In this document: in pieces, positions 4,794 to 38,216 of the stretch
How positions within the stretch are numbered: the first letter of the stretch is position 1
Layout: each line of letters opens with the position of its first letter
Assembly: GCA_038065455.1 (NCBI GenBank)
Contig: JBBTQX010000004.1
Location: 1 to 64,000 of the forward strand
Source: Patescibacteria group bacterium
GTDB taxonomy: Bacteria; Patescibacteriota; Minisyncoccia; UBA6257; GWB1-50-10
Length of the DNA: 64,000 nt
Direction of reading: 5' to 3'
The notes under the pieces: generated by a model
The model's input: only the letters and a program-made list of their open reading frames with translations
What the model was told of the DNA's origin: nothing
The model's database searches: none
Translations under genes and position numbers: made by a program

Positions 4794-4932
4794 CCCGTCA
4801 GAGACAGGATGCGCTCCTGCCTGCGCAGGCAGGTAATAAGCGCATCCGTTTGTTATGCAAACTTATATTTAATTCTTCGACTTGGTTGTAATTGTTTCTT
4901 TTCATATATTCACCTTGAACGTCTCTAACGGG
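4794..4932. mobile_element. MITE-like element family A, copy 1 (139 bp) with nested 18-bp palindrome
   Basis: Ends cccgtcagagac / gtctctaacggg, AT on both sides; internal GGATGCGC...GCGCATCC hairpin shared with copies at 8390 and 38108. Confidence 0.7.
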
Positions 4933-4934
4933 AT

Positions 4935-5792
4935 TCATCGGGTTAGCTTAAGATTAAAGCACTCCGAGGTATTTTTCAAAATTTGGCTTGCCATTGCTTC
5001 GATTGACAGCAATTTTATCTCCGCAAGTTTTTTAATCGTCTCCACCACATAGGCCGGCTCATTGCGCTTACCGCGATAAGGCACGGGCGCGACATAGGGC
5101 GCATCTGTCTCGCTCAATATCCTGTTTATCGGGATTAATTTGATCACTTCATCATAATCTCGAACGAAAGTGATAACACCGCCGAAAGTGAAATAAAAAC
5201 CCAACTCCAGAAGCTTCTCGGCTTCGTTTTCCGTGCCGGTAAAAAAATGAATAATACCCGGATTAGAACCTAGAAGCCGGAATCTAAAATCTAGAATACT
5301 TATTAAATCCGGAAAAGCGTTGCGACAATGAATCATTAGGGGCTTATTAACTTCATGAGCCAATTTTATTTGTTCTTCAAACGCCCATTTCTGTTTTTCC
5401 TTAATTCCTAATTCATTATCTGCGATTCTAAAGTAGTCCAACCCGCATTCGCCAATCGCAACTACTTTCGAGTCCAGTGCCAATTTCTTGTAGTACCCGT
5501 AATCAAATACCTCGCCTCGGCTCGTGAATTCCTTGGCCGCTTCGCCTCCGCCAAGTTCGTTCACGTCGTGAAAAGATTTGTCCGTATGCACGGGATGCAG
5601 ACCGATAGCGGCGAAGACCGGCTCACTCGCGAATTCCAGGGCGATTTCCACAGCCCGCAAAGAAGTGTCTTTCTGTGTGCCGACATTCACCATTCCCACG
5701 CCGGCGGAAAGCGCGCGGTTCACGACTTCCTTATAATCCTCTTTGAATGCAGAGAGATTGGCATGCGTATGGGCGTCGAAAAACTTGAGCAT
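4935..5792 (-). CDS. tatD: TatD-family hydrolase/DNase
   Basis: DAHTH, GLHP, IGECGLDY, IHCR, ETDAPY motifs. Confidence 0.93.
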   Translation of the reverse strand: MLKFFDAHTHANLSAFKEDYKEVVNRALSAGVGMVNVGTQKDTSLRAVEIALEFASEPVFAAIGLHPVHTDKSFHDVNELGGGEAAKEFTSRGEVFDYGYYKKLALDSKVVAIGECGLDYFRIADNELGIKEKQKWAFEEQIKLAHEVNKPLMIHCRNAFPDLISILDFRFRLLGSNPGIIHFFTGTENEAEKLLELGFYFTFGGVITFVRDYDEVIKLIPINRILSETDAPYVAPVPYRGKRNEPAYVVETIKKLAEIKLLSIEAMASQILKNTSECFNLKLTR

Positions 5793-5814
5793 AATTTTTT
5801 ATTATATGTGGATC

Positions 5815-7260
5815 TTAAGAAAAGCGCGGAAACAAAATCGCGCTTTTTTTATTCGCAAGCACGGCTTTTTTTATCTTCGCGCCCGTATCGGGCATAAAAG
5901 GCTCAAGCAAACGGGCGATGAAATACAGTTCCTCCGCGAGTTCGGCAATAATCTTTTTGCCGGCCTCCGGATCGGTTTTCACCAGCCGGAATGGTTCCTT
6001 CTCATTTATCTTCTGGTCCATGGCCCGCGCACGCGCTAAAATATAGCCCGTCGCCCGGTTGAATTCGAATTTTCCCATCGCTTCTCTGTATTCAGGGGGC
6101 AATTCCGCGGCCTCCGGCCGAACGGCCTTCTCGAGATTATCCTCGGCCAGCTTCATCACGCGGGCGGCCAAGTTTCCGATGCCGTTCGCCAAATTGGCAT
6201 TGTAGGCTTCTTTGAATCTATCCCAAAAAAAATCACTGTCTTCAAACGGGCTCATGTTATGTGCCAGAAAAAATCGGAGCGCATCCGTTCCGTATTTTTC
6301 CACGATTTCAAACGGATTCACCACATTCCCCAAACTCTTGCTCATCTTCTGCCCGTCGCTTGTGATAAAACCATGGATGATTATCTGCCGGGAAGGTGGC
6401 AAGCCGGCGGATAGGAGCATCGCCTGCCACATTGCGGACTGCTGGCGCAGATTGTCCTTGCCGGCAATCTGGAGCGCGTTCGGTTTTTCTTTCGTACCCC
6501 AAAAATCACCGAATTTTTTATCGTCTTCGGGCCAGCCCAAGGTCGAAATATAATTCGTCAAGGCATCGAACCAAACATACATTATTTGCATATCGTCTCC
6601 GGGCACCGGCACGCCCCACGGCATCTTGCTTTTTAGGCGCGAAACGCTGAAATCTTGAAGCCCGCTCGCAACGAAGTTTCTTATTTCAGTCAGTCGATGG
6701 GCCGGTACCACAAAATCCGGATATTTTTCGTAAAGTTCCAAAAGCGGTTTTTGATATTTCGAAAAACGGAAGAAGTAATTTTCCTCGTCGATAAGTTCCA
6801 ATTCAAGATTGGGATGAATCGGACACTTGCCGTCCGCAAGCTCGGAATCGGTTTTTTCGAGTTCGCAGCCGACGCAATATTTCACCCGGTAATTCTTTTT
6901 GTAAATATCGCCGCTGTTCTCGCATCGCCGCCAGAATTCTTGCGCCGCCGCCATATGATGCGGATCGGTCGTACGGATAAAATTTGTGAAGTCCAAATTC
7001 AAAGATTTTTTCAATTTGCCGAATTTGGCGGCATTCTCGTCCGCATATTTTTGAGTTTCTTTGCCCTCTTCCAAGGCTTTCCGATAAATTTTTAACCCGT
7101 GCTCATCGGTACCCGTATTAAAAACAACTTCTTCGCCGAGAAACTTATGATGACGGGCAATAATATCCGCCTGGACGACTTCGAGCGCAAAGCCGATATG
7201 CGGATCCGCATTCACATAAGGCAGGGTGGTAGTAATATAGAATTTGCCAATTTTATTCAT
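5815..7260 (-). CDS. metG: Methionine--tRNA ligase (short form, no C-terminal tRNA-binding domain)
   Basis: YITTTLPYVNADPHIG, TGTDEHG, YVWFDAL, KMSKS; start placed at MNKIG (7260). Confidence 0.95.
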   Translation of the reverse strand: MNKIGKFYITTTLPYVNADPHIGFALEVVQADIIARHHKFLGEEVVFNTGTDEHGLKIYRKALEEGKETQKYADENAAKFGKLKKSLNLDFTNFIRTTDPHHMAAAQEFWRRCENSGDIYKKNYRVKYCVGCELEKTDSELADGKCPIHPNLELELIDEENYFFRFSKYQKPLLELYEKYPDFVVPAHRLTEIRNFVASGLQDFSVSRLKSKMPWGVPVPGDDMQIMYVWFDALTNYISTLGWPEDDKKFGDFWGTKEKPNALQIAGKDNLRQQSAMWQAMLLSAGLPPSRQIIIHGFITSDGQKMSKSLGNVVNPFEIVEKYGTDALRFFLAHNMSPFEDSDFFWDRFKEAYNANLANGIGNLAARVMKLAEDNLEKAVRPEAAELPPEYREAMGKFEFNRATGYILARARAMDQKINEKEPFRLVKTDPEAGKKIIAELAEELYFIARLLEPFMPDTGAKIKKAVLANKKSAILFPRFS

Positions 7261-7263
7261 GAG

Positions 7264-7364: not shown

Positions 7365-7375
7365 GTATCAAGCCC

Positions 7376-8389
7376 TTACATATCGAGCACCGGGCGGCGC
7401 TCTTTCCTTTCGGTCAGATAATTGAAGATTTCTTGGACTAAGACAGCAAGCGGAACACTTAAGATTATCCCCACAAAACCGGCGATTTGGGCCCCAGCCA
7501 AAAGGGAAACAACCACGATTACCGGGTGTACTCTCATACTCTTACCCATTATGATCGGAATGAGTATATGATTCTCAAATTGCTGGACAACAAAAAAGAA
7601 TGCTAAAGCATACATACCCAACGCCGTGGAATCGGCGATAGCGATAACGAAGGCAATAAGCCCAATCATTATAGGACCGATGATCGGCACCACCTCGAAT
7701 ATGGCGGCGAGAATACCCAAAATCAGAGCGTAGCGAACGCCAATAAACCACATTCCCAATCCCACCGCGAAACCGACGAATAGACTCAATACCAGCTGAG
7801 TGCCGAGCCAGCGGCGCATTTTTATCTTGAATCCGTCGAAAATGGATAGAATCGGCCGTTCGTAATCATCCGGGATGATAACCCGTATCATTTTTTCCGC
7901 TCCGTCTTTTTCAATACTCAAATAAAGTGTGACAAAAATCGAGGAGAAGAAAAGAATGGCGTTTCCGAAGAGTTTAGTAATCGCGCCGGGAACGGAATTG
8001 CCCGCGCCCGAAATCAAATTCAATATCTGATCCGCTCCGATATTCAAACTTTCCAAACTCAAGCTGAAATTGCCGAAACGAAAAACCGAAGTAACGAATT
8101 GAGTAAAATGGAAAAGGAAGCCGGCCAGTTCCTCGAAGATAACCGGCGCTATGATGTATATTCCGCCGGCAAAAACGGAAATAATGGCGAGAATCACGAT
8201 GATGGAGGCGAAGACCCGACCGATTCTGGCTTTCTCGGCGAGAAAAGTGACGAATGGGTCTATTCCCATCGAAATCACAACACCCACAAGAAGAACGGTG
8301 AAAGCATCCCAGGCGAAATAAACGAGCGCGATGCCCGCCAGAAAGATAAAAATCCTCCATAAAGTCCCCCAAGCCACTTCCGTTTTCAT
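7376..8389 (-). CDS. AI-2E family (PerM-like) transporter
   Basis: Multi-TM; VPIIGP, QQFENHILIP, VHP, G..G..L..P motifs; real start MKTEV at 8389 (upstream ORF extension comes from the MITE). Confidence 0.88.
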   Translation of the reverse strand: MKTEVAWGTLWRIFIFLAGIALVYFAWDAFTVLLVGVVISMGIDPFVTFLAEKARIGRVFASIIVILAIISVFAGGIYIIAPVIFEELAGFLFHFTQFVTSVFRFGNFSLSLESLNIGADQILNLISGAGNSVPGAITKLFGNAILFFSSIFVTLYLSIEKDGAEKMIRVIIPDDYERPILSIFDGFKIKMRRWLGTQLVLSLFVGFAVGLGMWFIGVRYALILGILAAIFEVVPIIGPIMIGLIAFVIAIADSTALGMYALAFFFVVQQFENHILIPIIMGKSMRVHPVIVVVSLLAGAQIAGFVGIILSVPLAVLVQEIFNYLTERKERRPVLDM

Positions 8390-8512
8390 CCCGTTAGAAA
8401 CAGGATACGCCGCTTTGGCGCATCCGTTGGGAATCAAGCGACCTCCGAGATTTGATTTTTCTCATAATTACCTTCATTTTTATATCTTTAGAATACACCG
8501 GTTTCTAACGGG
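8390..8512. mobile_element. MITE-like element family A, copy 2 (123 bp)
   Basis: Perfect 12-bp TIR cccgttagaaac / gtttctaacggg, AT flanks, internal GGATACGC...GCGCATCC hairpin. Confidence 0.75.
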
Positions 8513-8514
8513 AT

Positions 8515-9783
8515 TCATACTTTCACTATATCAAGAAAACTCCTCTTCTTAAAGGGCCCGATGAGCGCCAGATTCAAGCCGTCGTTTCTTACCACTTCCC
8601 GCATAACTTTTCTTACGTCATTCGCGGTTATTCCGTTTACCTTCCGAGCCAGCTCCTGAGGCGAGGTGAGCTTCAGTCCCAGCATTTCCTGGCCGCCGTA
8701 GAAATAAGCCAATTCATCCGAGGTTTCGAGCGAGAGATAAAGATTGCCTATCAGATGTTCTTTGGCTTTTTTGAGATCTTTTTCGCTCACCAATTCGTTC
8801 CGCAAACGGTTGAATTCTTCCAAACCGGCCCTAATAACCGTTTCGATTTTTGTATGCTCGATTCCCGCCGCCATCGTCAAAAGGCCGTGATCGGAATAAA
8901 GGTCGGCATCGGCCCGCACATAATAGGCGGCGCCGAGCTCTTCCCGAATTCTTTGAAAAAAGCGCGAGCTCATTCCCCCGCCCAGGATTTCGGCCGCGAC
9001 CTGGAGGGCGATTCGCCGCTCGTCGTGGACGCCGAAAGCGCGGAACCCGAGAACCAAGTGGGTCTGGTCCGATTTTTTGAATTGAATGAGTTCCCGCGGC
9101 CTGGCCTGAATCTCTTTAACTTTGAGTTTTTTGCTTTTGGGTCCGGGCTTCAAAACCGAAAAATATTTTTCGATTCTTTTCGCGATGTCTTTCTCGCCGA
9201 AAGCGCCCGCGACCGTCACAATCGTGGCTTGAGGCACGTAGTGTTTCGCCCGATATTTCATGAAGTCGTTCCGGGTGATGCTCCGAATAACTTCTTTACG
9301 GCCGAGAATATCCCAACCCGCCGGCTGATTGCCGTAGACGAGATTCATAAAAAGGCTCTGAACCTTCCGAGAAGGCGTATCCTCGTACATATTGAACTCC
9401 TGGATAATGACGCCTTTTTCTTTTTCGATTTCCCGGGAATCAAATGTCGGATTCAGATACATATCGGCCACCACGTCCAATATCTCGTTCACATTCTCTT
9501 TTTTCGCTTTTGCATAATAGCTCGTGGATTCCTGACTCGTGAAAGCATTGGATTGCGCCCCAAGCCCGTCCATCTCCGCCGCAATATCAATCGGCTTCGG
9601 CCGCTTTGCCGTACCTTTGAAGCACATATGCTCCAGAAAATGCGAGATGCCGCTTATGTCTTTCGTTTCGTATTTCGAGCCGGCCTCCACCGACACCATT
9701 ACGGTCGCCGCCAGACTGCCCGATTGGGGCGCGAGAATAATCCGCAGACCGTTTTTTAATTTAATTCTTCTGATATTTTTCAT
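8515..9783 (-). CDS. M16 family zinc peptidase
   Basis: Inverted zinc motif HFLEH (GISHFLEHMCFKGT), NAFTS, GGGMSSR..IRE. Confidence 0.92.
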   Translation of the reverse strand: MKNIRRIKLKNGLRIILAPQSGSLAATVMVSVEAGSKYETKDISGISHFLEHMCFKGTAKRPKPIDIAAEMDGLGAQSNAFTSQESTSYYAKAKKENVNEILDVVADMYLNPTFDSREIEKEKGVIIQEFNMYEDTPSRKVQSLFMNLVYGNQPAGWDILGRKEVIRSITRNDFMKYRAKHYVPQATIVTVAGAFGEKDIAKRIEKYFSVLKPGPKSKKLKVKEIQARPRELIQFKKSDQTHLVLGFRAFGVHDERRIALQVAAEILGGGMSSRFFQRIREELGAAYYVRADADLYSDHGLLTMAAGIEHTKIETVIRAGLEEFNRLRNELVSEKDLKKAKEHLIGNLYLSLETSDELAYFYGGQEMLGLKLTSPQELARKVNGITANDVRKVMREVVRNDGLNLALIGPFKKRSFLDIVKV

Positions 9784-11146
9784 ATATGTAATTTTTTAGT
9801 TCTTTGATTTTTACGCGTTCCTGTTTCATCGTATCGCGGTCCCGCACCGTCACGTCTTCAGTTTCCAGGCTTTCGAAATCCACCGTGATGCAGTAAGGCG
9901 TGCCGGCTTCGTCCTGCGCCCGATAGCGCTTGCCCACATTTCCCCTGTCGTCCCACGCCACCGTGTACTCTTTCCTCAATTCTTCGTAGATTGTCCGTGC
10001 CAGTTTTACCAGCTCCAGCTTATTAGCCAGAAGCGGAAAAACCGCGGCTTTGTAGGGCGCTAATTTGGGATGTAATTTCAATACAATCCGTTTTTCCATT
10101 TCGTTGTTTTCTTTATTTGAATTTTGGGGCTTGTTTAGGATTTCGGATTTCGGATTTAGGATTTCTTCCGTATACGCATCCATTAGAAAGAAAAGGGTTG
10201 CGCGGTCTACGCCGCCCGAGGTCTCGATGATATAAGGCAGAAAGCGTTCCTTGGATTCCTCGTCGAAATAGGTCAGATCCTGCTTGGAAAATTCCTGATG
10301 GCGCCGCACATCCCAATCGCCCCGATGGTGGATTCCCTCCATCTCCTTCCAGTCGCCTTCCGCGTTATACTCGATATCGAATGCCGCCTGGGCGTAGTGC
10401 GCCAACTGCTCGTGTTCCTTGAAACGGAGATTTTTCTTCGTCATTCCGAGGGACAGATACCACTTCATCCGTTCTTCTTTCCAATATTCCATCCACTTCA
10501 TCGATTCTTTTTTGTCCGGTTTCGTATAGAACTGCAATTCCATCTGCTCGAATTCACGGGAGCGGAAAGTGAGTCCGCCGGGCGTTATCTCGTTCCGGAA
10601 GGCCTTGCCGACCTGGACGACGCCGAACGGGATTTTAACGCGGGTGGAATCCAGAACATTTTTGAAATTCACGTGCACGCCCTGGGTGATTTCGCCGCGG
10701 AGATATGTCTTGAGCTTCTCTCCCTCTATTGAGCCGAGATAGGTCTCGACCATCAGATTGAATTGCTTCGGTTCGGTTATTTCTCCGCCGCAATCGGGAC
10801 ATCCGCCAGCCGGCGGATTTTTCTCCAATTGGTCGGCGCGAAAACGATGGTGGCATTTTTTGCACTCGACGAGCGGGTCGGAAAAAGAATCCAGATGGCC
10901 CGATGCCTCCCAAACCTTCGGATTCATTATTATGGCGGCATCCAGGCCCACGATATTCTCGTGCTCCTGCGTCATGTTCTTCCAAAACTCGTTCTTGATA
11001 TTCCGCTTCAATTCCGCCCCGAGCGGGCCGTAATCCCAAGTACCCGCGAGGCCGCCGTAGATTTCGGAGCCCGGATAAATAAAGCCGCGCCGCTTGGCCA
11101 GAGAAGTAATCTTCTCGAAAATATCCTTCTTTTCTTCCTTCTTCAT
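9761..11146 (-). CDS. glyQS: Glycine--tRNA ligase, alpha2 (homodimeric) type
   Basis: EIYGG..G.WDYGPLG, FRNEITP, FRSREFEQMELQ, anticodon domain GKRYRAQDEAGTP. Confidence 0.95.
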   Translation of the reverse strand: MKKEEKKDIFEKITSLAKRRGFIYPGSEIYGGLAGTWDYGPLGAELKRNIKNEFWKNMTQEHENIVGLDAAIIMNPKVWEASGHLDSFSDPLVECKKCHHRFRADQLEKNPPAGGCPDCGGEITEPKQFNLMVETYLGSIEGEKLKTYLRGEITQGVHVNFKNVLDSTRVKIPFGVVQVGKAFRNEITPGGLTFRSREFEQMELQFYTKPDKKESMKWMEYWKEERMKWYLSLGMTKKNLRFKEHEQLAHYAQAAFDIEYNAEGDWKEMEGIHHRGDWDVRRHQEFSKQDLTYFDEESKERFLPYIIETSGGVDRATLFFLMDAYTEEILNPKSEILNKPQNSNKENNEMEKRIVLKLHPKLAPYKAAVFPLLANKLELVKLARTIYEELRKEYTVAWDDRGNVGKRYRAQDEAGTPYCITVDFESLETEDVTVRDRDTMKQERVKIKELKNYIYEKYQKN

Positions 11147-15486: not shown

Positions 15487-16593
15487 ATGAAGATACTCGC
15501 AATCGAAACGTCCTGCGATGAAACCGCGCTCGCGCTTCTCAAAGCAAGCGGGGGCTTGCGCGCTCCGAAATTTAAAGTCATTAAGAATCTGGTCTCTTCC
15601 CAGATAGAAGTGCATCGGCCCTGGGGTGGCGTCGTGCCGAACCTCGCCAAACGAGAACACATTAAAAATTTGCCGATTGTGTTTGAGCAAATTTTTTCAA
15701 ATCCTAAATACCGATTTCATCGAGTATCCTCGACAAAGTCGGGACAAATTCAAAATTCTAAAATCCAAATTCCAAAAATTGATCTGCTGGCCGTAACAGT
15801 GGGACCGGGACTGGAGCCGGCACTTTGGACCGGCGTCGAATTCGCAAAAGAATTGAAAAAAAATATTTTTCCGAAAGTTCCGCTAATCGGCGCAAACCAT
15901 TTGGAGGGACACCTATACAGTTTTTTGCTATCGCAAAAAACTGCAAATCCTAAATCCAAAATCCTAAATCCTAAAATATTTCCCGCAATTGCGCTTATAG
16001 CAAGCGGGGGTCATACCATTCTTCTCAAGATGGAATCACTCATAAAATGGAAAAAATTGGGTGAAACGCGGGATGACGCGGTGGGCGAGGCTTTCGATAA
16101 AGCGGCAAGAATACTCGGCCTTCCCTACCCTGGCGGACCGGAAATTCAGAAGCTCGCAGCTAACGGCAATCCCGAAGCCGTCGCCTTCCCTCGTCCGATG
16201 ATTTACGACAATTCGCCGACTGGCAAATATGAATTCAGTTTCTCTGGTTTGAAAACTTCCGTCCTTTATTATCTGCGGGATAATCCGAAAGCCGACAAAG
16301 CGAATGTAGCCGCCTCATTCCAGAAAGCTGCGGTGGACGTTCTGATATCGAAAACCGCCCGCGCCGTTCGGGAATTTAAGGCGAAATCGGTAATGCTTTC
16401 GGGCGGCGTCGCGGCCAACGCGTATCTTAGAGACAGACTGCGAGAGGCAAGCGACAAGATGGGTGTAAATTTCCTGGTGCCGCCGATGGATTTCAATACC
16501 GATAACGCCGTGATGATCGCGGCCGCGGCCTATATCCAAAATCTGCGCAAAAAGAAATACGCCATTCGCGCCCAAGGGAATTTGAATTTATAA
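15487..16593 (+). CDS. tsaD: tRNA N6-adenosine threonylcarbamoyltransferase
   Basis: ILAIETSCDET, HLEGH, DDAVGEAFDK, FSFSGLKT, GGVAAN, TDNAVMIA; contains repeat-derived inserts. Confidence 0.95.
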   Translation: MKILAIETSCDETALALLKASGGLRAPKFKVIKNLVSSQIEVHRPWGGVVPNLAKREHIKNLPIVFEQIFSNPKYRFHRVSSTKSGQIQNSKIQIPKIDLLAVTVGPGLEPALWTGVEFAKELKKNIFPKVPLIGANHLEGHLYSFLLSQKTANPKSKILNPKIFPAIALIASGGHTILLKMESLIKWKKLGETRDDAVGEAFDKAARILGLPYPGGPEIQKLAANGNPEAVAFPRPMIYDNSPTGKYEFSFSGLKTSVLYYLRDNPKADKANVAASFQKAAVDVLISKTARAVREFKAKSVMLSGGVAANAYLRDRLREASDKMGVNFLVPPMDFNTDNAVMIAAAAYIQNLRKKKYAIRAQGNLNL

Positions 16594-16600: not shown

Positions 16601-18865
16601 ATGAACGCTGATTTTTCAAAGCCCTATGACCCGAAGATAACCGAAGAAAAAATATACCAGCTTTGGCTTGATTCCGGCTATTTCAATCCGGACAACCTGC
16701 CTGCGCAGGCAGGCCTGCCTGTCGCAAAAATCAAAAATTCAAAAATTAAAAATTACGTGGTATATATGCCCCTCCCGAACGTGACGGGCACGCTCCATAT
16801 GGGCCACGCCTTGAACAACACCATTCAGGATATTCTCATCCGTTATCATCGGATGAAGGGATATAAAACGCTCTGGCTCCCCGGCACAGACCACGCCGGC
16901 ATCGCCACGCAGTACGTGGTGGAAAAAGACCTGCGAAAACAAAATATTTCCCGTTTCGAACTCGGCCGGGAAAAATTCGTGGAGAAGGTCTGGGAATGGA
17001 AGAAAAAATATGGCGACGCGATCTTAAACCAGCTCAAAAAAATTGGCATCTCGGCCGATTGGTCCCGCACGCGCTTCACGATGGACGAAGCCTATAGCCA
17101 AGATGTTTTAAAAGTCTTCGTTCATTACTACGAGAAGGGCTGGCTTTATCGCGGACTCCGCACCGTGAACTGGTGCCCGAAGGATGGCACAAGCCTCTCC
17201 GAGCTGGAACTGGAATACGAGGATACCGAAACCAAACTCTGGTATATCAACTATCCGCTTACGGATAGTAAATCCGAAATCCGAAATCCGAAATCCGAAT
17301 TCATAACAGTGGCGACAACGAGACCCGAAACGATGCTGGGCGATACCGCGATTGCCGTGAATCCCGCCGACAAGAGATACAAGCATCTTATCGGAAAGAC
17401 CGTCGTCCTTCCGATTCAAAATCGAGAGATACCGATTGTGGGCGATATCGCGATAGACCCTAAGTTCGGCACGGGCGCGGTCAAGGTGACGCCGGCCCAC
17501 GATATTCTCGATTTCGAAATCGGCCAACGGCACAAACTGGAAACGATTCAGGTAATAGACGAACGGGCCAAAATGACGGTGATAGCCGGAAAGTATGCCG
17601 GACTAAAAGCCGTTGAAGCCCGCGAAAAAATCGTGAACGACCTCAAAGAAATGGGGCTTCTGGTAAAAGAAGAAAAATATCAAACCCGCGTCGCGAAGTG
17701 CTACCGTTGCGGCACGATTATTGAGCCTATCCCATCCAATCAATGGTTTTTGAAGATGGATAAATTGGGAGCGATGGCGAAGCAGGCCGTGAAATCCAAA
17801 AAAGTGAGAATTCAGCCGAAAAATTTCGAGAAAACCTACTTGAATTGGCTTGAAAACGTCCGCGACTGGTCGGTCTCCCGCCAAATTTGGTGGGGACACC
17901 GGTTGCCGGTTTGGTTTCACGAGCCGAAGTGCGTTCCCAAAAAGGGCCGCGAAAAGGATTCCGCCAAGTGCGAGGAGATGGTGGTTTCGCTCACCGAACC
18001 GGAGTGTAAATATTGCGAAGGGAAATATATCCAATCGGAAGACGTGCTTGATACCTGGTTTTCCTCCGCTCTTTGGCCATTTGCCGGGCTTTCTAAAGAA
18101 GATGCAGAAAAATATTATCCCGGAAACGTCCTCGTAACCGCCCGCGACATCATTAATTTATGGGTCGCGCGGATGATCTTCTCCGGCTTAGAATTCAAGA
18201 AAAAGGTTCCCTTCACTGATGTCTTCATTAACGGCACCATCCTTGCCAAGGACGGCCGGCGAATGTCCAAAAGCCTCGGCACTGGCATTGACCCGCTGAA
18301 TTACATCGGACTGCATGGAGCGGACGCGACACGTTTCGCTATCATCTGGCAGGCCTCCGGCCAGGATATCCGCTGGGACGAGGCGGCCGTCATGGCCGGC
18401 CGGAAATTCTGCAATAAAATCTGGAACGCATCCCGCTTTGTTATAGAACAAAGCGGAAATCCGAAATCCGAAATCCGAAATCCGAAACCTCGAACGGCAG
18501 CGGATAAAAAGATTCTTAAGAAGCTCGCGGCGGTGAAAAAACAAACCGGAAAAAACATAGAAAAATTCGAGTTCTCGAAAGCGCTCCACGATATTTACGA
18601 TTTCTTCTGGCATGAGTTCTGCGACATTTACATCGAGGAGACAAAAAAAATTCACCCCGTTAGAAATAGCCCGCCCCAAGGCCCGGAGGGCGCGCGCCGC
18701 GCGGGCGAGATTTCTAACGGGGCAGGAGGAAATTCGGCAGAAATATTGATGTATGTATTAAAAGAATCCCTTAAAATGCTCCATCCATTCATGCCATTCA
18801 TCACGGAAGCGATCTATGGAAACATGGCCGAAAAAAATGGGCTTTTAATGGTTGAAAAATGGTAG
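16601..18865 (+). CDS. valS: Valine--tRNA ligase (lacks C-terminal coiled coil)
   Basis: PNVTGTLHMGHA, PGTDHAGIATQ, ATTRPET, DTWFSS, RMSKS. Confidence 0.96.
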   Translation: MNADFSKPYDPKITEEKIYQLWLDSGYFNPDNLPAQAGLPVAKIKNSKIKNYVVYMPLPNVTGTLHMGHALNNTIQDILIRYHRMKGYKTLWLPGTDHAGIATQYVVEKDLRKQNISRFELGREKFVEKVWEWKKKYGDAILNQLKKIGISADWSRTRFTMDEAYSQDVLKVFVHYYEKGWLYRGLRTVNWCPKDGTSLSELELEYEDTETKLWYINYPLTDSKSEIRNPKSEFITVATTRPETMLGDTAIAVNPADKRYKHLIGKTVVLPIQNREIPIVGDIAIDPKFGTGAVKVTPAHDILDFEIGQRHKLETIQVIDERAKMTVIAGKYAGLKAVEAREKIVNDLKEMGLLVKEEKYQTRVAKCYRCGTIIEPIPSNQWFLKMDKLGAMAKQAVKSKKVRIQPKNFEKTYLNWLENVRDWSVSRQIWWGHRLPVWFHEPKCVPKKGREKDSAKCEEMVVSLTEPECKYCEGKYIQSEDVLDTWFSSALWPFAGLSKEDAEKYYPGNVLVTARDIINLWVARMIFSGLEFKKKVPFTDVFINGTILAKDGRRMSKSLGTGIDPLNYIGLHGADATRFAIIWQASGQDIRWDEAAVMAGRKFCNKIWNASRFVIEQSGNPKSEIRNPKPRTAADKKILKKLAAVKKQTGKNIEKFEFSKALHDIYDFFWHEFCDIYIEETKKIHPVRNSPPQGPEGARRAGEISNGAGGNSAEILMYVLKESLKMLHPFMPFITEAIYGNMAEKNGLLMVEKW
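18656..18721. mobile_element. MITE-like element family A, GC-rich subtype, 66 bp in frame in valS
   Basis: cccgttagaaat...atttctaacggg; translated as PVRNSPPQGPEGARRAGEISNG. Confidence 0.75.
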
Positions 18866-20479: not shown

Positions 20480-21859
20480 CTAACGGCGCTTGAAAATTTT
20501 CTTGCAATAGAGATTGAATTTTTCTCCCCTATCGAACTCGTTCTTGAACTTCTCAAAGCTGGCCGCCCCCGGCGAAAAAATAATCATCCATTTCGTCTTT
20601 TTCTCTTTTTTTTCATAAATCACTTGGGTGGTATACTTAAGTATACCACCTAGATCTTCGTAGAAGTTTATTTTTTTGTTTTTAGAATATCCGATTTTCT
20701 CGAGCGCCGCGATCATTTTTTTGGTGGCGCTGCCGTTCAAAAGGAAAAGGTTTTCCGGTTTCACGAAGCGCTTTACTGTTTTCGCCCATCCGCCATATTC
20801 CAAGTTTTTATCCGTTCCACCGGAGATGAGGATAATATTTTCTTTTCCGAACCTCCGAAGAGCGGCTATCGTCCCATCGGGCGAGGTCGCCGTCGTGTCA
20901 TTCACCACCGTAAGCTTCGGCGATTTGAAGACGATCTCCTCCCGGAATTTTATTCGCGGCAAACGCCAGGCCGCTCGTCGGAGAGCCGAAACGGGCACGC
21001 CGGCAAGTTTGGCGGCGAGATATGCGGCTTTGAAATTCTCCAGATTATGCGGACCGGAGATTTTGGAGAATTTCTTTTCATTTATACCGGTTTTTGCGGA
21101 TGAATAGAGCATCTTTGAGCCGACCCTCCAATTGGAGAATTTTTTAAGGAAAAATTTCGTCCATTCGTTCCGGCAATTCAGAATCAAAAAATCTCCCTTC
21201 TTCTGGTTTTTGAATATATTCGCCTTCGCAGAAGCATAGCTGACAAGCGTCCGGTAGCGGTTCATATGGTCACGGTAGATATTGGTGATTACAGCCACTT
21301 CCGGACCCCGGCCGGATTGGCTTAAAAGCTCCAGGTGCCAGGACGAAAGTTCCGCGACGACGGGCGACTTGCCGTCTAAGCCGTCCAGAATGCCGAGCAG
21401 GGGCTGGTCCGAGGAGTTGCCGGTAAGTTTCGCCTTCGGAAACTTTTGCTTCAATAAAAACAATATCCAGTTCACGGTTGTCGTCTTCCCCCGGGTGCCG
21501 GTCACGGCGATAATCGGATTTTTGCAGTATCGGAAGAACAAGCTCGCTTCATTCTCCAAACGCGCACCGTGTTTTTTGGCAATGGCGAGATACTTGCTCT
21601 CGCGCGGCACGGCTGGATTCACCACGATAATTTTATTGGTCTTGAAATCAGCTCTGCGGTGTTTGCCCAAAACGAAAATAATTTTTTTCGCCGCCGCGCC
21701 CAATTTATTTATCGAGTCTTTTAATTCCCCGCGCGAACGCAAATCCGTCACGGTCACATTCGCGCCGTGCAGAATGAGCCACTTCGTGGTCGCAATCCCC
21801 CCGCCGAGCAGACCCAGGCCCATTACCAGTACTTTTTTGTTTTTTAACTCAATGGCCAT
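20480..21859 (-). CDS. murD: UDP-N-acetylmuramoyl-L-alanine--D-glutamate ligase
   Basis: VLVMGLG, AVTGTRGKTTT, ELSSW, DHMNRY, SPGAASF..F.N...RG. Confidence 0.9.
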   Translation of the reverse strand: MAIELKNKKVLVMGLGLLGGGIATTKWLILHGANVTVTDLRSRGELKDSINKLGAAAKKIIFVLGKHRRADFKTNKIIVVNPAVPRESKYLAIAKKHGARLENEASLFFRYCKNPIIAVTGTRGKTTTVNWILFLLKQKFPKAKLTGNSSDQPLLGILDGLDGKSPVVAELSSWHLELLSQSGRGPEVAVITNIYRDHMNRYRTLVSYASAKANIFKNQKKGDFLILNCRNEWTKFFLKKFSNWRVGSKMLYSSAKTGINEKKFSKISGPHNLENFKAAYLAAKLAGVPVSALRRAAWRLPRIKFREEIVFKSPKLTVVNDTTATSPDGTIAALRRFGKENIILISGGTDKNLEYGGWAKTVKRFVKPENLFLLNGSATKKMIAALEKIGYSKNKKINFYEDLGGILKYTTQVIYEKKEKKTKWMIIFSPGAASFEKFKNEFDRGEKFNLYCKKIFKRR

Positions 21860-25795: not shown

Positions 25796-25883
25796 AATCC
25801 GAGTTAGTATGATAATGGCGACCAATTCATCGGCCGCCATTTTTATTTCCTAAAACCGTTTAGATATATAACTAAAAAAACAA

Positions 25884-26072
25884 GGTAGTATAATTGACTA
25901 TACCACCTGGTAATTAATCCTTGAGTAATTCTATTTTAAAGCAGGCCTTTTCTCTTAATTCCTGACTTATATTCTTTTTGTTCACCCGTGTCATATTGAT
26001 TTCTTTTTATTCTAGCATATATAAATAGTTCGACATGCTATACCATCTGGTAGTCTAATTGATTAGACTACC
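25884..26072. repeat. Two copies of a 24-bp palindrome family in direct orientation (also at 20627 and 34480)
   Basis: ggtagtataattgactataccacc (25884-25907) and ggtagtctaattgattagactacc (26049-26072). Confidence 0.6.
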
Positions 26073-26114: not shown

Positions 26115-26492
26115 TTAAATGTTTTCGTAGTGGCGGATTTCGAAAGCATCGGCTTCGGCAAACCCATTACTCTTCTTAACAAGAGCCACGAGATCCAGAC
26201 GCCAGCCCCTTTTGTCGCTTATGAGCTCTTCGTGGGAACCCGCGTATATTTCCGCCGTCCGGCGGAATTTTTTCATCTTAGCTCCGGACATCTGGTCTTC
26301 CGGTTTCAATATCCCCGGCCTCATAGTCTTAACTTCCACAAAAACCAGGGTCTTATCCGGTGCTATTACCACAATATCCAACTCGCCCCATTTCTCCCGC
26401 TTATTTCGTTCAATTACCCCATAACCCTTTCTTTTCAGATATTCGGCCGCAAAATCCTCCCCCTCCCGCCCCAATTCAGATTTTTGAGTCAT
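26115..26492 (-). CDS. yraN: YraN family (UPF0102) PD-(D/E)xK endonuclease
   Basis: G..GE..A..YL...GY, GELDIV, LVFVEVKT; start MTQKS. Confidence 0.88.
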   Translation of the reverse strand: MTQKSELGREGEDFAAEYLKRKGYGVIERNKREKWGELDIVVIAPDKTLVFVEVKTMRPGILKPEDQMSGAKMKKFRRTAEIYAGSHEELISDKRGWRLDLVALVKKSNGFAEADAFEIRHYENI

Positions 26493-26928
26493 AGTAAGCA
26501 AATTTCCCGAATTTCCCCTGTTTGTGCAAATTGAATATTCTTCTATATGGATATGGGACGTTGGTATTCCCAATCTTCTCTATCCATTCCTGAAATTGAA
26601 CTCCTTTGTAACCACGGAGTTTTCCATAAAAGAACGGAACGACCACATTTATAAGCGACAAATAATCCCTAACTATTAATGTCGCCATTTTACCCCTATT
26701 AACCCCGTCTTTTCTGTATGGACCACTAACATAAATACTATTACTGTTTATTTTTGGCAGCTTCATTGATGTTCTCATGAGCCTCAAAAGCTCTTCATCT
26801 CGTTGATGCATAGAAATAATAAAAGTTGGAACTTTTAGTTTTTCTTCTCTTTTTACTCTTGTATCAAAGGTGAAGCAACCCTCTCCTTCTACTAATCCTC
26901 TGATATATTCATCAGAAAGTAGTTCCAT
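26476..26928 (-). CDS. Free-standing single-motif LAGLIDADG homing-endonuclease-like protein
   Basis: YIRGLVEGEGCF motif, F.I.M..RD..LL, VPFF...L.G.K...F..W. Confidence 0.8.
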   Translation of the reverse strand: MELLSDEYIRGLVEGEGCFTFDTRVKREEKLKVPTFIISMHQRDEELLRLMRTSMKLPKINSNSIYVSGPYRKDGVNRGKMATLIVRDYLSLINVVVPFFYGKLRGYKGVQFQEWIEKIGNTNVPYPYRRIFNLHKQGKFGKFAYYDSKI

Positions 26929-32322: not shown

Positions 32323-32324
32323 AT

Positions 32325-33210: not shown

Positions 33211-34431
33211 CTATTTAATAGGGAAATCCTTGCAGATTCGGCCTACTTCTTTTTTGAGGATTTCCGGTTTTTTCTCTTTCAAAAGCGCTTCGGAAATGAG
33301 CCGCCCGATTATTTTCATCTGCCTTTCTTTTAAACCGCGGGTCGTGAGCGCGGCCGTTCCCAGCCGGATGCCCGACGGGCTCATTGGCGTGCGTGTGTCG
33401 TGCGGAATGGTGTTTTTGTTCGCGATAATACCGATATCTTCCAGAAGCTCGCTGGTTTCCTGTCCGCTCAAACCGCGCGCCCAAGTATCCAAAAGTATAA
33501 GATGCGAATCCGTGCCGCCCGAAACTATTTTCCAATGAAGTTTTTTCAGAGTCTCCGCGAGAGCTTTGGCATTTCTGACCGTCTGCTTCGCATACTTCCT
33601 AAAGCCAGGTTCGGCCGCTTCTTTCAGAGCCACGGCTGTCGCGGCGATCTGATTGCCGTGAGGGCCGCCCTGAAGGCCGGGGAAAACGCTTTTATCTATC
33701 GCTTCCGAGAATTTATTGCGCGAGAAGATGAGCGCCGCTCTCGGTCCGCGCAAAGTTTTGTGCATTGTGGTCGTAACCACGTCGGCCGAAGAAAATGGCG
33801 AAGGATAAGCGCCGCCCGCGATCAAGCCCGCGAAATGGGACATATCCACCATAAAAATCGCACCGGAAGATTTGGCGATTCTCTGGAATTTTTTGAAATC
33901 GATTATCCGAGAGTAAGCGGTGTAGCCGGCCACAATTAGTTTCGGCCGTTCTTTTTTCGCGATTCCGGAAACTTCGCCGTAATCGAGTTGGCCACTGCCT
34001 TTTTGGACAACGTAAGGAATAATCTTCCACAACTTTCCCGTCACGCTCACCTTGTGGCCATGGGTAAGGTGGCCGCCCATATCCAAACGCAACCCCATAA
34101 TCTTTTCTCCGACCGGAACGAGCGCGAGATAAACGGCGAGATTGGCGGGGGAGCCGGAATAAGGCTGGATATTCACGGACCATTCTTTGGGTGAAAGCCG
34201 GAAAAGCTTCAAGGCGCGCTCTTTCGTAAGGTCTTCCAGCTTGTCCATCACTTCGTTCCCGCCATAATACCTCATTTTAGAGTAGCCTTCCGCGTATTTA
34301 TTGGTAAAAACGGAGCCTAGGGCAGCCAAAACATCGTCGGAGACGTAATTTTCCGAAGCAATCAGATTCAAAGTGTCGTTTTGCCGCTTAGCCTCGCTGT
34401 TTATGAGATTTTCGACGATTTTATCGTTCAT
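33211..34431 (-). CDS. glyA: Serine hydroxymethyltransferase
   Basis: LIASEN, NKYAEGY, GGHLTHG, TTTMHKTLRGPR, FPGLQGGP. Confidence 0.96.
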   Translation of the reverse strand: MNDKIVENLINSEAKRQNDTLNLIASENYVSDDVLAALGSVFTNKYAEGYSKMRYYGGNEVMDKLEDLTKERALKLFRLSPKEWSVNIQPYSGSPANLAVYLALVPVGEKIMGLRLDMGGHLTHGHKVSVTGKLWKIIPYVVQKGSGQLDYGEVSGIAKKERPKLIVAGYTAYSRIIDFKKFQRIAKSSGAIFMVDMSHFAGLIAGGAYPSPFSSADVVTTTMHKTLRGPRAALIFSRNKFSEAIDKSVFPGLQGGPHGNQIAATAVALKEAAEPGFRKYAKQTVRNAKALAETLKKLHWKIVSGGTDSHLILLDTWARGLSGQETSELLEDIGIIANKNTIPHDTRTPMSPSGIRLGTAALTTRGLKERQMKIIGRLISEALLKEKKPEILKKEVGRICKDFPIK

Positions 34432-34533
34432 TGTTTCTTTAGTATAATCTTAAAAAATCAAAAACACAAAGAAAAAGCGGGTGGTATACTCAAGTATACC
34501 ACCCTGTTTTTTAATCAAAGTAATCAGTCCGAA

Positions 34534-35384: not shown

Positions 35385-35385
35385 G

Positions 35386-35889: not shown

Positions 35890-35959
35890 TGTTGATATAA
35901 AAATACGCCCCAGGAAGGGGCGGTGTCAAATGAAACTCTATTTTTTTCTTCAGGACTTC

Positions 35960-36106
35960 TTAACGTCGGCCCAAAAGAAACAATAGCCCCAACAGAACGA
36001 ATATCGCCGCCTCCAGCCAATTTTGTTTTTGAAAAGCTTCAATTAAAGCTAATCCGAAAAATAATACAAATACCGCGAAGTTGGCGCCGAACTTAATCTT
36101 TTTCAT
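35960..36106 (-). CDS. 48-aa two-TM small membrane protein (below ORF-track cutoff)
   Basis: Hand translation: MKKIKFGANFAVFVLFFGLALIEAFQKQNWLEAAIFVLLGLLFLLGRR; starts 3 nt after tRNA-Val. Confidence 0.5.
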   Translation of the reverse strand: MKKIKFGANFAVFVLFFGLALIEAFQKQNWLEAAIFVLLGLLFLLGRR

Positions 36107-36109
36107 TTG

Positions 36110-36181
36110 TGGGCGATGAGGGATTTGAACCCCCGGCCTTCATCGTGTAAAGATGTTGCTCTACCACTGAGCTAATCGCCC
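36110..36181 (-). tRNA. tRNA-Val(TAC)
   Basis: GGGCGATTAGCTCAGTGGTAGAGC...TTTACAC...GGTTCAAATCC...ATCGCCCA cloverleaf; CCA not encoded. Confidence 0.92.
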
Positions 36182-36188
36182 TGGATTG

Positions 36189-36262
36189 TCGGCCCGGAAG
36201 GACTCGAACCTTCGAATAGACGAGGTATAAGCTCGTTGCATTAGCCGCTATGCTACGGGCCG
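36189..36262 (-). tRNA. tRNA-Ile(TAT)
   Basis: CGGCCCG acceptor stem, anticodon stem ACGAG/CTCGT with loop CTTATAC, T-arm GGTTCGAGTCC. Confidence 0.85.
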
Positions 36263-38107
36263 TTAGGCCTTCAATCCTACTTGCTTCAGATTAAAGCTTT
36301 TTATGATTTTGTAAAACTCTTCCTGTTCCAAGGTCTCTTTTTCCATGAGCGCCTTAGCGATGGTATCCAGAACGGTGCGGTGGGCCGTCACGATTTTTTT
36401 GGCGATGTTTAAGGTCTTCTCGATTATCTTATTCACCTCGGCATCTATTTCAGTACCGACGGTTTCGGAATAATCTTTTTCAGTCGTCATCTCGCGGCCC
36501 AAAAAAATCAGTTCTTGGGTCTTGCCAAAGGTGCGCGGCCCGAGTTTTTCACTCATGCCATATCTGGTCACCATCCGATGGGCATCGTCCGTCGCATTCT
36601 TGATATCACTCGAGGAGCCGGTCGTAATGTCTTTGAAAACCAATTGCTCCGCCACATATCCGCCGAAGGATACGGCGAGGTCGGCCAAAAACTGCGTCTT
36701 GGTGCGGAGATGGGTTTCTTCAAGCGGCAATTTTATCGTATAACCGCCGGCCATTCCTCGGCTGATAATGGAAACCTTGTGTATCGGGTCGGCATCTTTC
36801 AAAGCCGCCGCGACAAGCGCGTGGCCGGCCTCGTGATAGGCGGTGATTTTCTTTTCGTTGTCGGAGATGACGCGGCTTCGGCGCGCGGGTCCGAGCATCA
36901 CTTTCTCGATGGAACTCAAAAAATCTTCCTGGTCGACAATTTTCTTATTCTCCCGGGCGGCTTTGATGGCCGCTTCGTTTATGAGATTCGCCAAGTCCGC
37001 TCCGGCGAAGCCCGGCGTGCGCACCGCCACCACTTTCAAATCGACATTTTTCGCGAGCGGCTTTCCGATGGCGTGGATTTTCAAAATCTCTTCCCGGTCT
37101 TTGATGTCGGGACTGTCCAGAACCACGCGCCGATCGAATCGGCCGGGTCTCAAAAGCGCGGCGTCCAAAACATCCGGGCGATTTGTTGCCGCCATCACGA
37201 TAACATTGGAGTTCCGTTCAAAGCCATCCATTTCAACGAGAATTTGATTCAAGGTCTGTTCGCGCTCGTCATGGCCGCCGCCCATCCCGGTGCCGCGCTC
37301 GCGTCCCACCGCATCAATCTCATCTATGAAAATAATGGAAGGCGCGGCTTTCTTGGCTGTCATAAACAAATCCCGCACGCGGCTTGCACCCACGCCCACG
37401 AACATTTCGACGAATTCCGAAGCGGAGATATGAAAAAAAGGAACATTGCTCTCGCCCGCCACCGCCCGGGCCAAAAGGGTTTTGCCCGTGCCCGGCAGAC
37501 CCATCAGAAGCACGCCGCGGGGAATACGCGCGCCGATATCCAGAAATTTCTTGGAATTTTTCAAAAAATCCACTACTTCGCGCAATTCTTCTTTGGCTTC
37601 TTTCAATCCCGCCACATCCTTGAAGGTCACCTTGTCCTTACTTCGGGAAAAGAGCTTGATGTTCATTTTGCCGAATGAAAAGGCCTGATTCGCTCCGGTC
37701 TTCGCTTGGCGGAATATCCACCAAAAAATCAAAACCATAACGATTATGGGCAGGATAATCGGAACAAGAATACCCATCCAATATTTGAAACCACTCTCGT
37801 CTTGGACGCTCAGTTGCAGTTTTATCAAAGCTTCTTTCGTTACGCCGTAACCGGTGAGCGTTTCGATTATTCCCGTCTCGTTCTCCTTGCGCGAATGGGC
37901 GTTCGTCCCATCGTTCAATTTTATTTCCAAATCATTGCCATTCACATTCACGCTCTTCACCTCGCCTGCGATTATTTTTTGGGCCAGAGCGTCAATTGTG
38001 AGCTTCTGCGAATCCGTACCGGCCGGCGCCGAAAAAAGCGAAAAGATAAAAGCGACGAAAAATAAAAGGATTATGGCGCCCGTGAAATTTTTGGTAAACT
38101 TTTTCAT
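36263..38107 (-). CDS. ftsH: ATP-dependent zinc metalloprotease FtsH
   Basis: Two TMs, [11 protein letters not shown] motif, HEAGH. Confidence 0.97.
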
Positions 38108-38216
38108 CCCGTTAGAAACAGGATGCGCTTTTTAAGCGTATCCGTATTATTAAACTTATTTATTTCTTTATTTTTCATGGAATATTCTATATTATACTTA
38201 GCAAATTTCTAACGGG
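38108..38216. mobile_element. MITE-like element family A, copy 3 (109 bp)
   Basis: cccgttagaaa / tttctaacggg TIR, AT flanks, internal GGATGCGC...GCGTATCC hairpin. Confidence 0.75.

What the first reader, a model, noticed from the sequence alone, without database searches (positions are those of the whole stretch)
4794..38216. MITE-like family A inserted exactly at the AT of start codons (leuS, AI-2E transporter, ftsH)
Seen: three elements (4794-4932, 8390-8512, 38108-38216) share the TIR CCCGTTAGAAA/TTTCTAACGGG and a subterminal GGATGCGC-loop-GCGCATCC hairpin. Their AT-rich interiors are unrelated. All are flanked by AT on both sides and, on the minus strand, all end ...ACGGG-ATG at the start codon of a gene. 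For copies 1 and 2, removing the element and one AT restores TGAATG, a stop directly abutting a start. Each interior holds a short ORF; in copy 3, TATAAT precedes [24 protein letters not shown], whose TGA overlaps the ftsH ATG. Inference: a non-autonomous element with a 2-bp AT target duplication that survives at gene starts, may supply a promoter or coupled leader, and may be the collapsed form of cargo-carrying cassettes. No matching transposase is in the window.
Basis: partly seen in the sequence, partly recalled or inferred. Interest (0 to 1): 0.75.

Follow-up and report, generated by a model that had tools for sequence, protein, structure and literature searches.

The report
Start-codon-hijacking nuclease mini-transposon remnants
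These are short non-coding members of a family of tiny jumping DNA elements in ultra-small bacteria; the full-length member is about 275 bases, encodes only a small DNA-cutting enzyme, borrows a host gene's start codon and rebuilds it behind itself, which may point to an undescribed way for DNA to move.

Summary
The three elements are real, and the window holds two more with the same ends (one in frame inside valS). One genome scan gave 25 loci, nearly all Patescibacteria; 21 of 25 hits sit with the hairpin end directly on an ATG that opens a long frame. The 2-bp AT duplication is wrong: the flanks co-vary as a 4-bp repeat (TGAA, TGCG, TGGA, TGAG) that extends to 5 bp in 24 of 24 exact cases, so the empty tatD-leuS and peptidase-transporter junctions are ATGA overlaps. 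Orthologous empty sites exist for other copies. The only coding member found is a 275-279-bp element whose single ORF is a UPF0213/Slx1-like GIY-YIG nuclease. In one copy it starts at the target ATG (MNPVRD) and stops on the duplicated TGA (FLSLTG); 89 and 110 of the best 120 homologues share these ends. It has the same two-stem fold as the short copies, which keep a coupled leader ORF more often than shuffles. Best reading: MITE-like derivatives of a minimal nuclease-encoding element, probably mobilised by that nuclease. That last step is inferred, not shown; an unlinked transposase or recombinase remains possible. Not found in ten literature searches; the nearest analogue is Ssn/NTS.

The parts
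4793..4933 (-). Copy 1 (139 bp core 4794-4932 plus the terminal T/A pair); its last base is the A of the leuS ATG
4934..4937 (-). Upstream copy of the 4-bp repeat TGAA; carries the tatD stop codon
4789..4792 (-). Downstream copy of the 4-bp repeat TGAA, inside the leuS start
4807..4847 (.). Inner stem of copy 1
4816..4833 (.). 18-bp palindrome of another family nested in the loop of copy 1; a second copy lies in valS at 16696
4798..4938 (-). Leader ORF of copy 1 (46 aa from the upstream ATG, 35 aa from an internal ATG), stopping 4 nt before the leuS ATG
8389..8513 (-). Copy 2 (123 bp core 8390-8512 plus terminal pair) at the AI-2E transporter ATG; TGAA repeats at 8385-8388 and 8514-8517, the upstream one carrying the M16 peptidase stop
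8403..8425 (.). Inner stem of copy 2
8394..8477 (-). Leader ORF of copy 2 (27 aa), stopping 4 nt before the transporter ATG
38107..38217 (-). Copy 3 (109 bp core 38108-38216 plus terminal pair) at the ftsH ATG; flanks inverted rather than direct
38121..38143 (.). Inner stem of copy 3
38104..38178 (-). Leader ORF of copy 3 (24 aa, ends FLTG), stop overlapping the ftsH ATG; same reading frame through the right end as the nuclease ORF of the full-length element
18655..18722 (.). Copy 4, GC-rich short class (66 bp core), in frame inside valS; no flanking direct repeat left
39413..39484 (.). Copy 5, GC-rich short class (70 bp core), intergenic between rpsA and an MBL-fold gene; TCAA repeats at 39409-39412 and 39485-39488
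2403..4793 (-). leuS, target gene of copy 1
7376..8389 (-). AI-2E family transporter, target gene of copy 2
36263..38107 (-). ftsH, target gene of copy 3

Best explanation
The window copies are non-autonomous, MITE-like members of a family whose coding member is a minimal element of about 275 bp. Shown from sequence: that element has 12-bp-class terminal inverted repeats, a 4-bp flanking repeat (5 bp with the terminal base) and one ORF, a single-domain GIY-YIG nuclease. At ATGAA sites the ORF begins at the host's own ATG, reads through the left end, and stops on the TGA of the duplicated target, which overlaps a rebuilt ATG for the host gene; an upstream gene that overlapped the old ATG keeps its stop in the left repeat. 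Full-length and short copies share one fold: a terminal stem with a second stem stacked at the 3' side. Short copies usually keep an open leader that runs up to the host ATG. Inferred: (a) short copies arose by loss of the nuclease's coding capacity and then moved as units; (b) the nuclease recognises the folded single-stranded element and cuts at the foot of the terminal stem, and host polymerase and ligase finish insertion at a short matching target; (c) start codons are favoured because the coding form needs the host's promoter, ribosome site and ATG, and because a ribosome reading the leader opens the stem that hides the first two bases of the host AUG. About 0.9 that these are mobile insertions of this family; about 0.55 that the nuclease is the mobiliser.
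For: Flank co-variation: 24 of 42 elements have an exact 4-bp repeat (TGAA 16, TGCG 2, TGGA 2, TCAA 2, TGAG 1, CGGG 1), 4 more differ by one base, 3 have a 3-bp repeat. Position: 21 of 25 scan hits have ATG plus an ORF of 60 aa or more at the hairpin end, although the pattern did not include the flank; in the window 3 of 17 ATGAA gene starts are occupied and 0 of 22 intergenic ATGAA sites (hand-picked list of 56 ORFs). Empty orthologous sites at six positions, two of them reciprocal between L005 and L019; the valS insert is absent from 97 of 99 parsed homologues. One interior subfamily sits at three different genes (window copy 1, L021, L024; z 10-14). Coding members L008:6460-6734 and L020:8821-9099. 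Of the best 120 of 3151 homologues, 89 begin M-x-P-V-R and 110 end LTG; Y13, Y24, G26, R32, H38, Y56 and E70 are kept in 118-120 of 120. Both coding copies fold with the two stems, and the inner stem starts 88 and 92 nt from the left end against 80-88 in the 116-139-bp copies; both stems show compensatory changes. Leaders of 25 aa or more in 14 of 26 short copies against 4.6 +/- 1.9 in dinucleotide shuffles (0 of 1000), 8 of 15 against 2.5 +/- 1.3 after merging subfamilies (1 of 1000). Longer homologues are fusions to many unrelated host proteins, 36 of 82 with a readable C-terminus at the prepilin G|F position. Two more distant small GIY-YIG genes sit at tRNA 5' ends with a duplicated tRNA start, one with its own different terminal repeats. 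A related kind of small GIY-YIG nuclease cuts ssDNA beside hairpins (PMC11893778).
Against: No biochemical or genetic evidence of mobility. Only two coding copies were seen as DNA, and one (L020) has no flanking repeat and starts at an internal ATG. Short interiors do not align with the 5' part of the coding copies (z at most 2.6; the two coding copies score only 2.9 against each other, so the test is weak). 11 of 42 elements show no direct repeat, including window copies 3 and 4. The protein-end counts are ranked by likeness to a query that has those ends; among 146 more distant representatives only 6 showed both end motifs. The window has no nuclease gene of this family. A hydrolytic GIY-YIG nuclease has no known strand-transfer activity (general knowledge), so the joining step is unexplained. 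At a threshold of 8 aa the leader count is not above shuffles (23 of 26 against 20.8; 100 of 1000). The empty sites are in orthologues of 49-86% amino-acid identity, not near-identical alleles. The scan pattern selected short, hairpin-bearing copies, so a long transposase-bearing member would only have been met by chance in the flanks.
Confidence: 0.55

Rival explanations
1. The nuclease is a passenger or retention factor, and an unlinked DDE transposase or tyrosine recombinase moves anything bounded by these ends.
For: Terminal repeats plus a short target repeat are the usual DDE signature (PMC10969869). A joined circle would have 11-12-bp arms around a 4-6-bp spacer, like a tyrosine-recombinase site, and the base before the repeat equals the element's last base in 24 of 24 exact cases, which suggests matching at a crossover. 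The ends contain GTTAGA and TCTAAC, which resemble integron core sites (consensus recalled, not tested); 2 of 120 longer homologues adjoin an integron-integrase-like domain. The window has a tyrosine recombinase gene at 51473-52366.
Against: No transposase or recombinase between these ends in 443 kb; the only enclosed gene is the nuclease; its coding sequence itself forms the ends and the inner stem; related nucleases come with different terminal repeats. No attC-like hairpin follows the right end, which abuts a host ATG.
Confidence: 0.3
2. The short copies are mainly domesticated RNA leaders that regulate translation of the downstream gene, and mobility is ancient or minor.
For: Fixed orientation, narrow length (25 of 42 are 116-123 bp), conserved two-stem fold and excess leader ORFs.
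Against: Patchy presence at orthologous genes, unrelated target genes, target repeats, in-frame insertions, no Rfam match.
Confidence: 0.08
3. One reading: 2-bp AT duplication, survival at gene starts by selection alone, collapsed cassettes with varied cargo.
For: AT flanks both sides in 28 of 42 elements; five elements lie at successive gene starts within 6.6 kb in L008 and could act as composite ends.
Against: Five elements with an exact longer repeat lack AT on the left; flanks co-vary over 4-5 bases; orientation is fixed although either orientation would rebuild the ATG; no other cargo found.
Confidence: 0.05
4. Protein-binding sites or an assembly artefact.
For: Two unpaired left ends in L005.
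Against: Ends are paired in all 5 window copies and all 25 scan hits, across many independent assemblies.
Confidence: 0.02

Closest known systems
Ssn nucleases and NTS/SRM repeats (Chenal et al. 2025, PMC11893778)
   Same: Single-domain GIY-YIG of 94 aa tied to hairpin repeats that also occur without the gene; the authors note that NTS-ssnA-NTS looks like an insertion sequence; the Tyr-Tyr-Glu residues they mutated (Y6, Y17, E64) have the same spacing, within one residue, as Y13, Y24 and E70 here.
   Different: Here the repeats are terminal inverted repeats that lie inside the ORF, there is a target repeat, a stop and often a start are taken from the target, and the SRM pattern matches 0 of 42 elements. 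Mobility was not shown in the parts of that paper I read. cd10448 membership could not be tested.
Prokaryotic type II MITEs (review PMC10969869)
   Same: Under 500 bp, terminal repeats, flanking direct repeats that decay, stable stem-loop, similarity largely confined to the ends.
   Different: The only coding relative found carries a nuclease, not a transposase; strong polarity and start-codon placement; retained leader ORF.
Rickettsia palindromic elements (passage in PMC10969869)
   Same: Palindromic inserts read in frame inside unrelated genes, like copy 4 in valS and the L006 insert.
   Different: Different hosts; sequence relationship not tested; most copies here sit at gene starts rather than inside genes.
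IS200/IS605 and REP/RAYT (as summarised in PMC11893778; details recalled)
   Same: Subterminal hairpin, strand polarity, likely single-stranded substrate.
   Different: No HUH enzyme; terminal inverted repeats and a target repeat are present, which those elements lack (recalled).
Prokaryotic stand-alone Slx1-like / UPF0213 GIY-YIG proteins (PMC1564403; PDB 1zg2, 1ywl, Slx1 7cq2-4, 6seh)
   Same: Best sequence and fold matches of the nuclease; minimal domain with no auxiliary part.
   Different: Treated there as ancient repair-type proteins; that paper asks whether other GIY-YIG members are molecular parasites. Here the gene is bounded by mobile-element ends.

Membership tests
MITE (type II) | Length under 500 bp | tested here: met
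   66-139 bp in the window
MITE (type II) | Terminal inverted repeats of about 4-30 bp | tested here: met
   12-14 paired bases
MITE (type II) | Flanking direct repeats, decaying with age | tested here: met
   exact in 24 of 42, in 3 of 5 window copies
MITE (type II) | Stable stem-loop | tested here: met
   z -3.1 to -8.1
MITE (type II) | Mobilised in trans by the transposase of a related IS | tested here: inconclusive
   no transposase between these ends in 443 kb; the coding relative has a GIY-YIG nuclease; scan biased to short copies
Ssn/NTS system | Small single-domain GIY-YIG protein | tested here: met
   94 aa, PF01541 only
Ssn/NTS system | Member of CDD family cd10448 | not testable with these tools
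   no CDD library; best structural matches are UPF0213 and Slx1
Ssn/NTS system | Gene flanked by SRM hairpins | tested here: not met
   published SRM pattern matches 0 of 42 elements with 40-bp flanks and 0 sites in the window
Ssn/NTS system | Site-specific cleavage of ssDNA only | not testable with these tools
   needs purified protein; catalytic positions conserved
IS200/IS605 or REP/RAYT | HUH (Y1) transposase | tested here: not met
   Pfam gives GIY-YIG only
IS200/IS605 or REP/RAYT | No target duplication and no terminal inverted repeats (recalled) | tested here: not met
   both present
Integron gene cassette | attC site after the ORF | tested here: not met
   by inspection the right end is followed directly by a host start codon; no attC model was run
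Integron gene cassette | Association with an integron integrase | tested here: inconclusive
   2 of 120 longer homologues adjoin PF13495/PF00589 domains
Rickettsia palindromic elements | In-frame insertion in unrelated genes | tested here: met
   valS copy 4 and L006:1947-2012
Rickettsia palindromic elements | Sequence relationship to RPE families | not tested
   no Rfam match at gathering threshold in the window; no direct comparison made

The most novel reading that the evidence does not exclude
A new class of DNA mobile element, far below the 800-2000 bp that the MITE review gives for insertion sequences: an all-coding 275-bp unit whose only protein, an Slx1/UPF0213-like GIY-YIG nuclease, drives its own movement and that of its MITEs without a transposase or recombinase. 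It would land at functional boundaries that it rebuilds (start codons, the prepilin cleavage site, and in related clades tRNA 5' ends), each nuclease clade having its own terminal repeats. At the prepilin site the host peptidase would release the nuclease with the same C-terminus as the start-codon form.
Probability: 0.45. Interest if true: 0.93.

Novelty: new variant of a known kind. Interest (0 to 1): 0.8.

Why it matters
It gives a concrete, testable candidate for what spreads small palindromic repeats in bacteria, a question the Ssn paper raises but leaves open. It offers an explanation for many small proteins annotated 'excinuclease ABC subunit C' or 'GIY-YIG nuclease' in Patescibacteria, and for stray MNPVR/SNG/FLTG peptides and nuclease-pilin fusions in their annotations. 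It shows how a parasite can sit in operons of essential genes in a compact genome without breaking them. If the nuclease alone suffices, a 94-aa protein with 5-bp target matching would be a new insertion chemistry.

Tried and rejected
Likeness of the copy-1 leader to the LeuS N-terminus: rejected, the same interior sits at other genes in L021 and L024. Phage and plasmid records: two chance-level matches and one chance-level match for copy 2, none for the full-length DNA or protein. Rfam: only three tRNAs. Exact-motif literature search: 32 papers, 20 listed, none about this element by title or abstract start; the P. gingivalis hit is an engineered oligonucleotide. NCBIfam: only a weak group I intron endonuclease match far below cutoff. 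ESM Atlas: generic GIY-YIG clusters only. Direct alignment of short interiors to coding copies: not significant. Internal promoter in copy 3: one weak site inside, one outside. Covariance-model hit at window 34399-34519 (E 0.5): no terminal repeats, rejected. Generic scan for other repeat-plus-arm elements: among ATG-starting repeats it returned only this family, a sister end variant and nested pairings in L008; most other rows look like background (30.5 rows in shuffles), and the middle of the output was lost to a run of N in L002. Rows dropped before the count of 42: three alternative nested pairings (L002 70 bp, L012 60 bp, L016 234 bp) and two unpaired L005 ends; the two sister-end copies were found later and are not in the 42. 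No complex prediction was run.


Full report
1. Observation. The three elements are at the stated coordinates and each ends at the ATG of leuS, an AI-2E transporter and ftsH. The 11-mer has 8 exact matches in the window, all in inverted pairs; at two mismatches it is not enriched (26 found, 27.3 expected). Two pairs were missed: 18656-18721, in frame inside valS, and 39414-39483, intergenic. A covariance model found no further credible copy in the window. All five fold far better than shuffles. ValRS homologues that carry a name are mostly Patescibacteria, so the host is probably one.

2. Distribution. One scan of the genome collection, with a pattern covering one end and the hairpin but not the flank, gave 25 loci: 23 titled as Patescibacteria groups, one Omnitrophota, one Desulfuromonadaceae. 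With the window this is 443 kb, in which I tabulated 42 elements; three alternative nested pairings and two unpaired ends were left out. Lengths are 63-139 bp for 40 elements, 25 of them 116-123 bp, and 275 and 279 bp for two. The pattern is strict, so 25 loci is a floor and long members could be met only by chance.

3. The target repeat is 4-5 bp, not AT. Left and right flanks co-vary: TGAA 16 times, TGCG 2, TGGA 2, TCAA 2, TGAG 1, CGGG 1, so 24 of 42 are exact; 4 differ by one base, 3 have a 3-bp repeat, 11 have none, 2 of these being exact inversions. The bases just outside the CCCG/CGGG core pair with each other in 40 of 42 (T-A or C-G), so I count them as part of the element. In all 24 exact cases the base before the left repeat equals the element's last base, giving a 5-bp repeat; the sixth base matches in only 4 of 24. 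Five exact cases lack AT on the left. For copies 1 and 2 the implied empty junction is a 4-nt ATGA overlap; among 21 ATG elements with an exact repeat, 12 had a long upstream frame and 9 of these overlapped the ATG. Copy 3's inverted flank could come from template switching in the stem or from recombination between copies; this is inference.

4. Position and polarity. 22 of 25 scan hits have ATG directly at the hairpin end and 21 open a frame of 60 aa or more; 2 have an outward ATG at the other end. In the window 17 of 56 hand-picked gene starts begin ATGAA, three are occupied, and none of 22 intergenic ATGAA sites is. Either orientation would rebuild the ATG, so purifying selection on the start codon alone does not explain the polarity.

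5. Empty sites. L005 has an element at ssb and none at rpsR; L019 has the reverse. L006/L021, L021/L006 and L023, and L010/L016 give three more filled-empty pairs, and an in-frame insert of 72 bp in an spoU-like gene of L006 is absent from L023 (these gene names are my reading of the sequences). The orthologues are 49-86% identical, so they show patchy presence, not exact alleles. ftsH is occupied in both the window and L004 by elements with unrelated interiors. The valS insert is in 2 of 99 parsed homologues, both 97% identical in that region; 21 of 120 could not be parsed and one further regex hit was a false positive. No locus held the tatD-leuS or peptidase-transporter junction. Interiors fall into subfamilies shared between different genes, including window copy 1 with L021 and L024, so short copies move as units or exchange interiors.

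6. The coding member. L008:6460-6734 translates from the target ATG through both ends to the TGA of the right repeat as a 94-aa GIY-YIG protein. L020:8821-9099 encodes a 63% identical protein from an internal ATG. A search gave 3151 homologues; of the best 120, 89 begin M-x-P-V-R, 96 have PVR in the first 25 residues and 110 end LTG. The ranking favours the query's ends, and among 146 more distant representatives only 6 had both motifs, so this architecture marks a subclade. Seven positions typical of the GIY-YIG active site (roles recalled) are kept in 118-120 of 120. The model (pLDDT 86.7) and the profile match UPF0213 proteins and Slx1 best. Both coding copies fold with the terminal stem and an inner stem made of two stretches of the ORF; the short copies have the same stem with a short loop at nearly the same distance from the left end. 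Their interiors do not align with the nuclease gene, so descent rests on ends, fold and spacing. No gene of this family lies in the window.

7. Other landing sites. Of 120 longer homologues listed, 82 had a readable C-terminus and 36 of these continue into a pilin-like F-T-L/I motif; Pfam confirms the N-methylation motif in the two tested. Four show FT on both sides of the nuclease, as a repeat would give. Prepilin peptidase cuts between G and F (established knowledge), which would free the nuclease; this is inference from protein sequence only. Two more distant small GIY-YIG genes lie at the 5' ends of tRNA-Val (L004) and tRNA-Ser (L008) with the tRNA start duplicated; the L004 gene has its own 20-bp terminal repeats. 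A sister end variant, CCCGTACGAA, has the same ATGAA repeat at two start codons.

8. Leader and promoter. Among 26 copies of 100-200 bp before an ATG, 14 hold an ORF of 25 aa or more that ends within 6 nt of the host ATG, against 4.6 +/- 1.9 in dinucleotide shuffles (0 of 1000); after merging subfamilies 8 of 15 against 2.5 +/- 1.3 (1 of 1000); at 8 aa there is no excess. The RNA fold pairs the AU of the host AUG. A coupled leader is therefore likely; its function is untested. The promoter idea has no support beyond weak consensus sites inside and outside copy 3.

9. Mechanism. Shown: anatomy, repeats, polarity, patchy presence, coding relative. Inferred: the nuclease cuts the folded single strand and host enzymes complete insertion at a short matching target (0.55). 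Main rival: an unlinked transposase or tyrosine recombinase, with the nuclease as passenger (0.3).

10. Literature. Ten searches of open-licence PMC and bioRxiv listed no paper on this element; most subscription papers are outside that library. PMC11893778: I read parts 1-5 of 11 (abstract, introduction, results, discussion, start of methods) and passages, and searched 12 of 14 supplements, with no hit for Patescibacteria, Parcubacteria, Omnitrophota or cd10449; the two unsearched files could bear on host range. PMC10969869: part 1 of 6 and passages. PMC1564403 and PMC3969353: passages. All other papers: listing and abstract start only. A large MITE survey (PMC11602168, listing only) may hold these sequences in its data without comment.

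11. Verdict. Real, more regular than first described, and tied to a nuclease-only coding element. Filed as a new variant of MITE/IS-like elements that resembles Ssn/NTS but fails its SRM test; categorically new if the nuclease proves to be the mobiliser. Interest 0.8.

Noticed in passing
window 18656-18721 and 39414-39483; L002:5207-5275; L006:1947-2012: A GC-rich 66-70-bp class with the same ends, not at start codons; two of four are in frame inside genes.
   Followed up: partly
window 4816-4833 and 16696-16713: An 18-bp palindrome of another family, once nested in copy 1 and once in frame near the valS 5' end.
   Followed up: partly
window 10134-10170, 15932-15975, 17270-17313, 18446-18500, 3964-3993: In-frame heptamer tandem repeats inside glyS-like, tsaD-like, valS and leuS genes; a 13-aa stretch of this kind in valS is absent from two otherwise near-identical ValRS proteins.
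   Followed up: partly
L004:2140-2442 (minus); L008:19060-19392: Small GIY-YIG genes at tRNA 5' ends with a duplicated tRNA start; the L004 one has its own terminal inverted repeats.
   Followed up: partly
L004:10475-10590; L002:1968-2080: Sister family with a different end sequence but the same ATGAA repeat, length and start-codon position.
   Followed up: partly
L008:3535-10121: Five elements, one coding, at gene starts within 6.6 kb of a region with glycosyltransferase-like genes; they could act as composite ends.
   Followed up: no
L005:9268-9320 and L005:1-73: Left ends without a right end; the first still encodes a short leader whose stop overlaps an rpoC-like ATG.
   Followed up: partly
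window 38217-38227; L014:10122-10132: The two elements share 11 identical bases in their inverted left flank although they sit at different genes in different genomes.
   Followed up: no
L004:4347-4465, L012, L013, L011, L023 interiors: A degenerate right-end-like motif about 60 nt inside one subfamily of short copies.
   Followed up: no
window 20626-20650, 25883-25907, 34479-34503: Three copies of a 25-bp palindrome in intergenic regions (family D11).
   Followed up: no
window 50705-50741 and 51398-51434; 60409-60450 and 61028-61069: Pairs of palindromes bracketing two small genes that look like PaaX-type regulators (my reading, not tested).
   Followed up: no
window 40492-44328: The gyrA-like ORF is 1278 aa and appears to hold an intein-like insertion (by eye, not tested).
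   Followed up: no
window 26476-26928 and 51473-52366: A free-standing LAGLIDADG gene and a tyrosine recombinase gene; neither is bounded by the element's ends.
   Followed up: partly
proteins P0245, P0160, P0132, P0137: Short elements of this kind nested inside or directly behind the nuclease ORF, read in frame.
   Followed up: no
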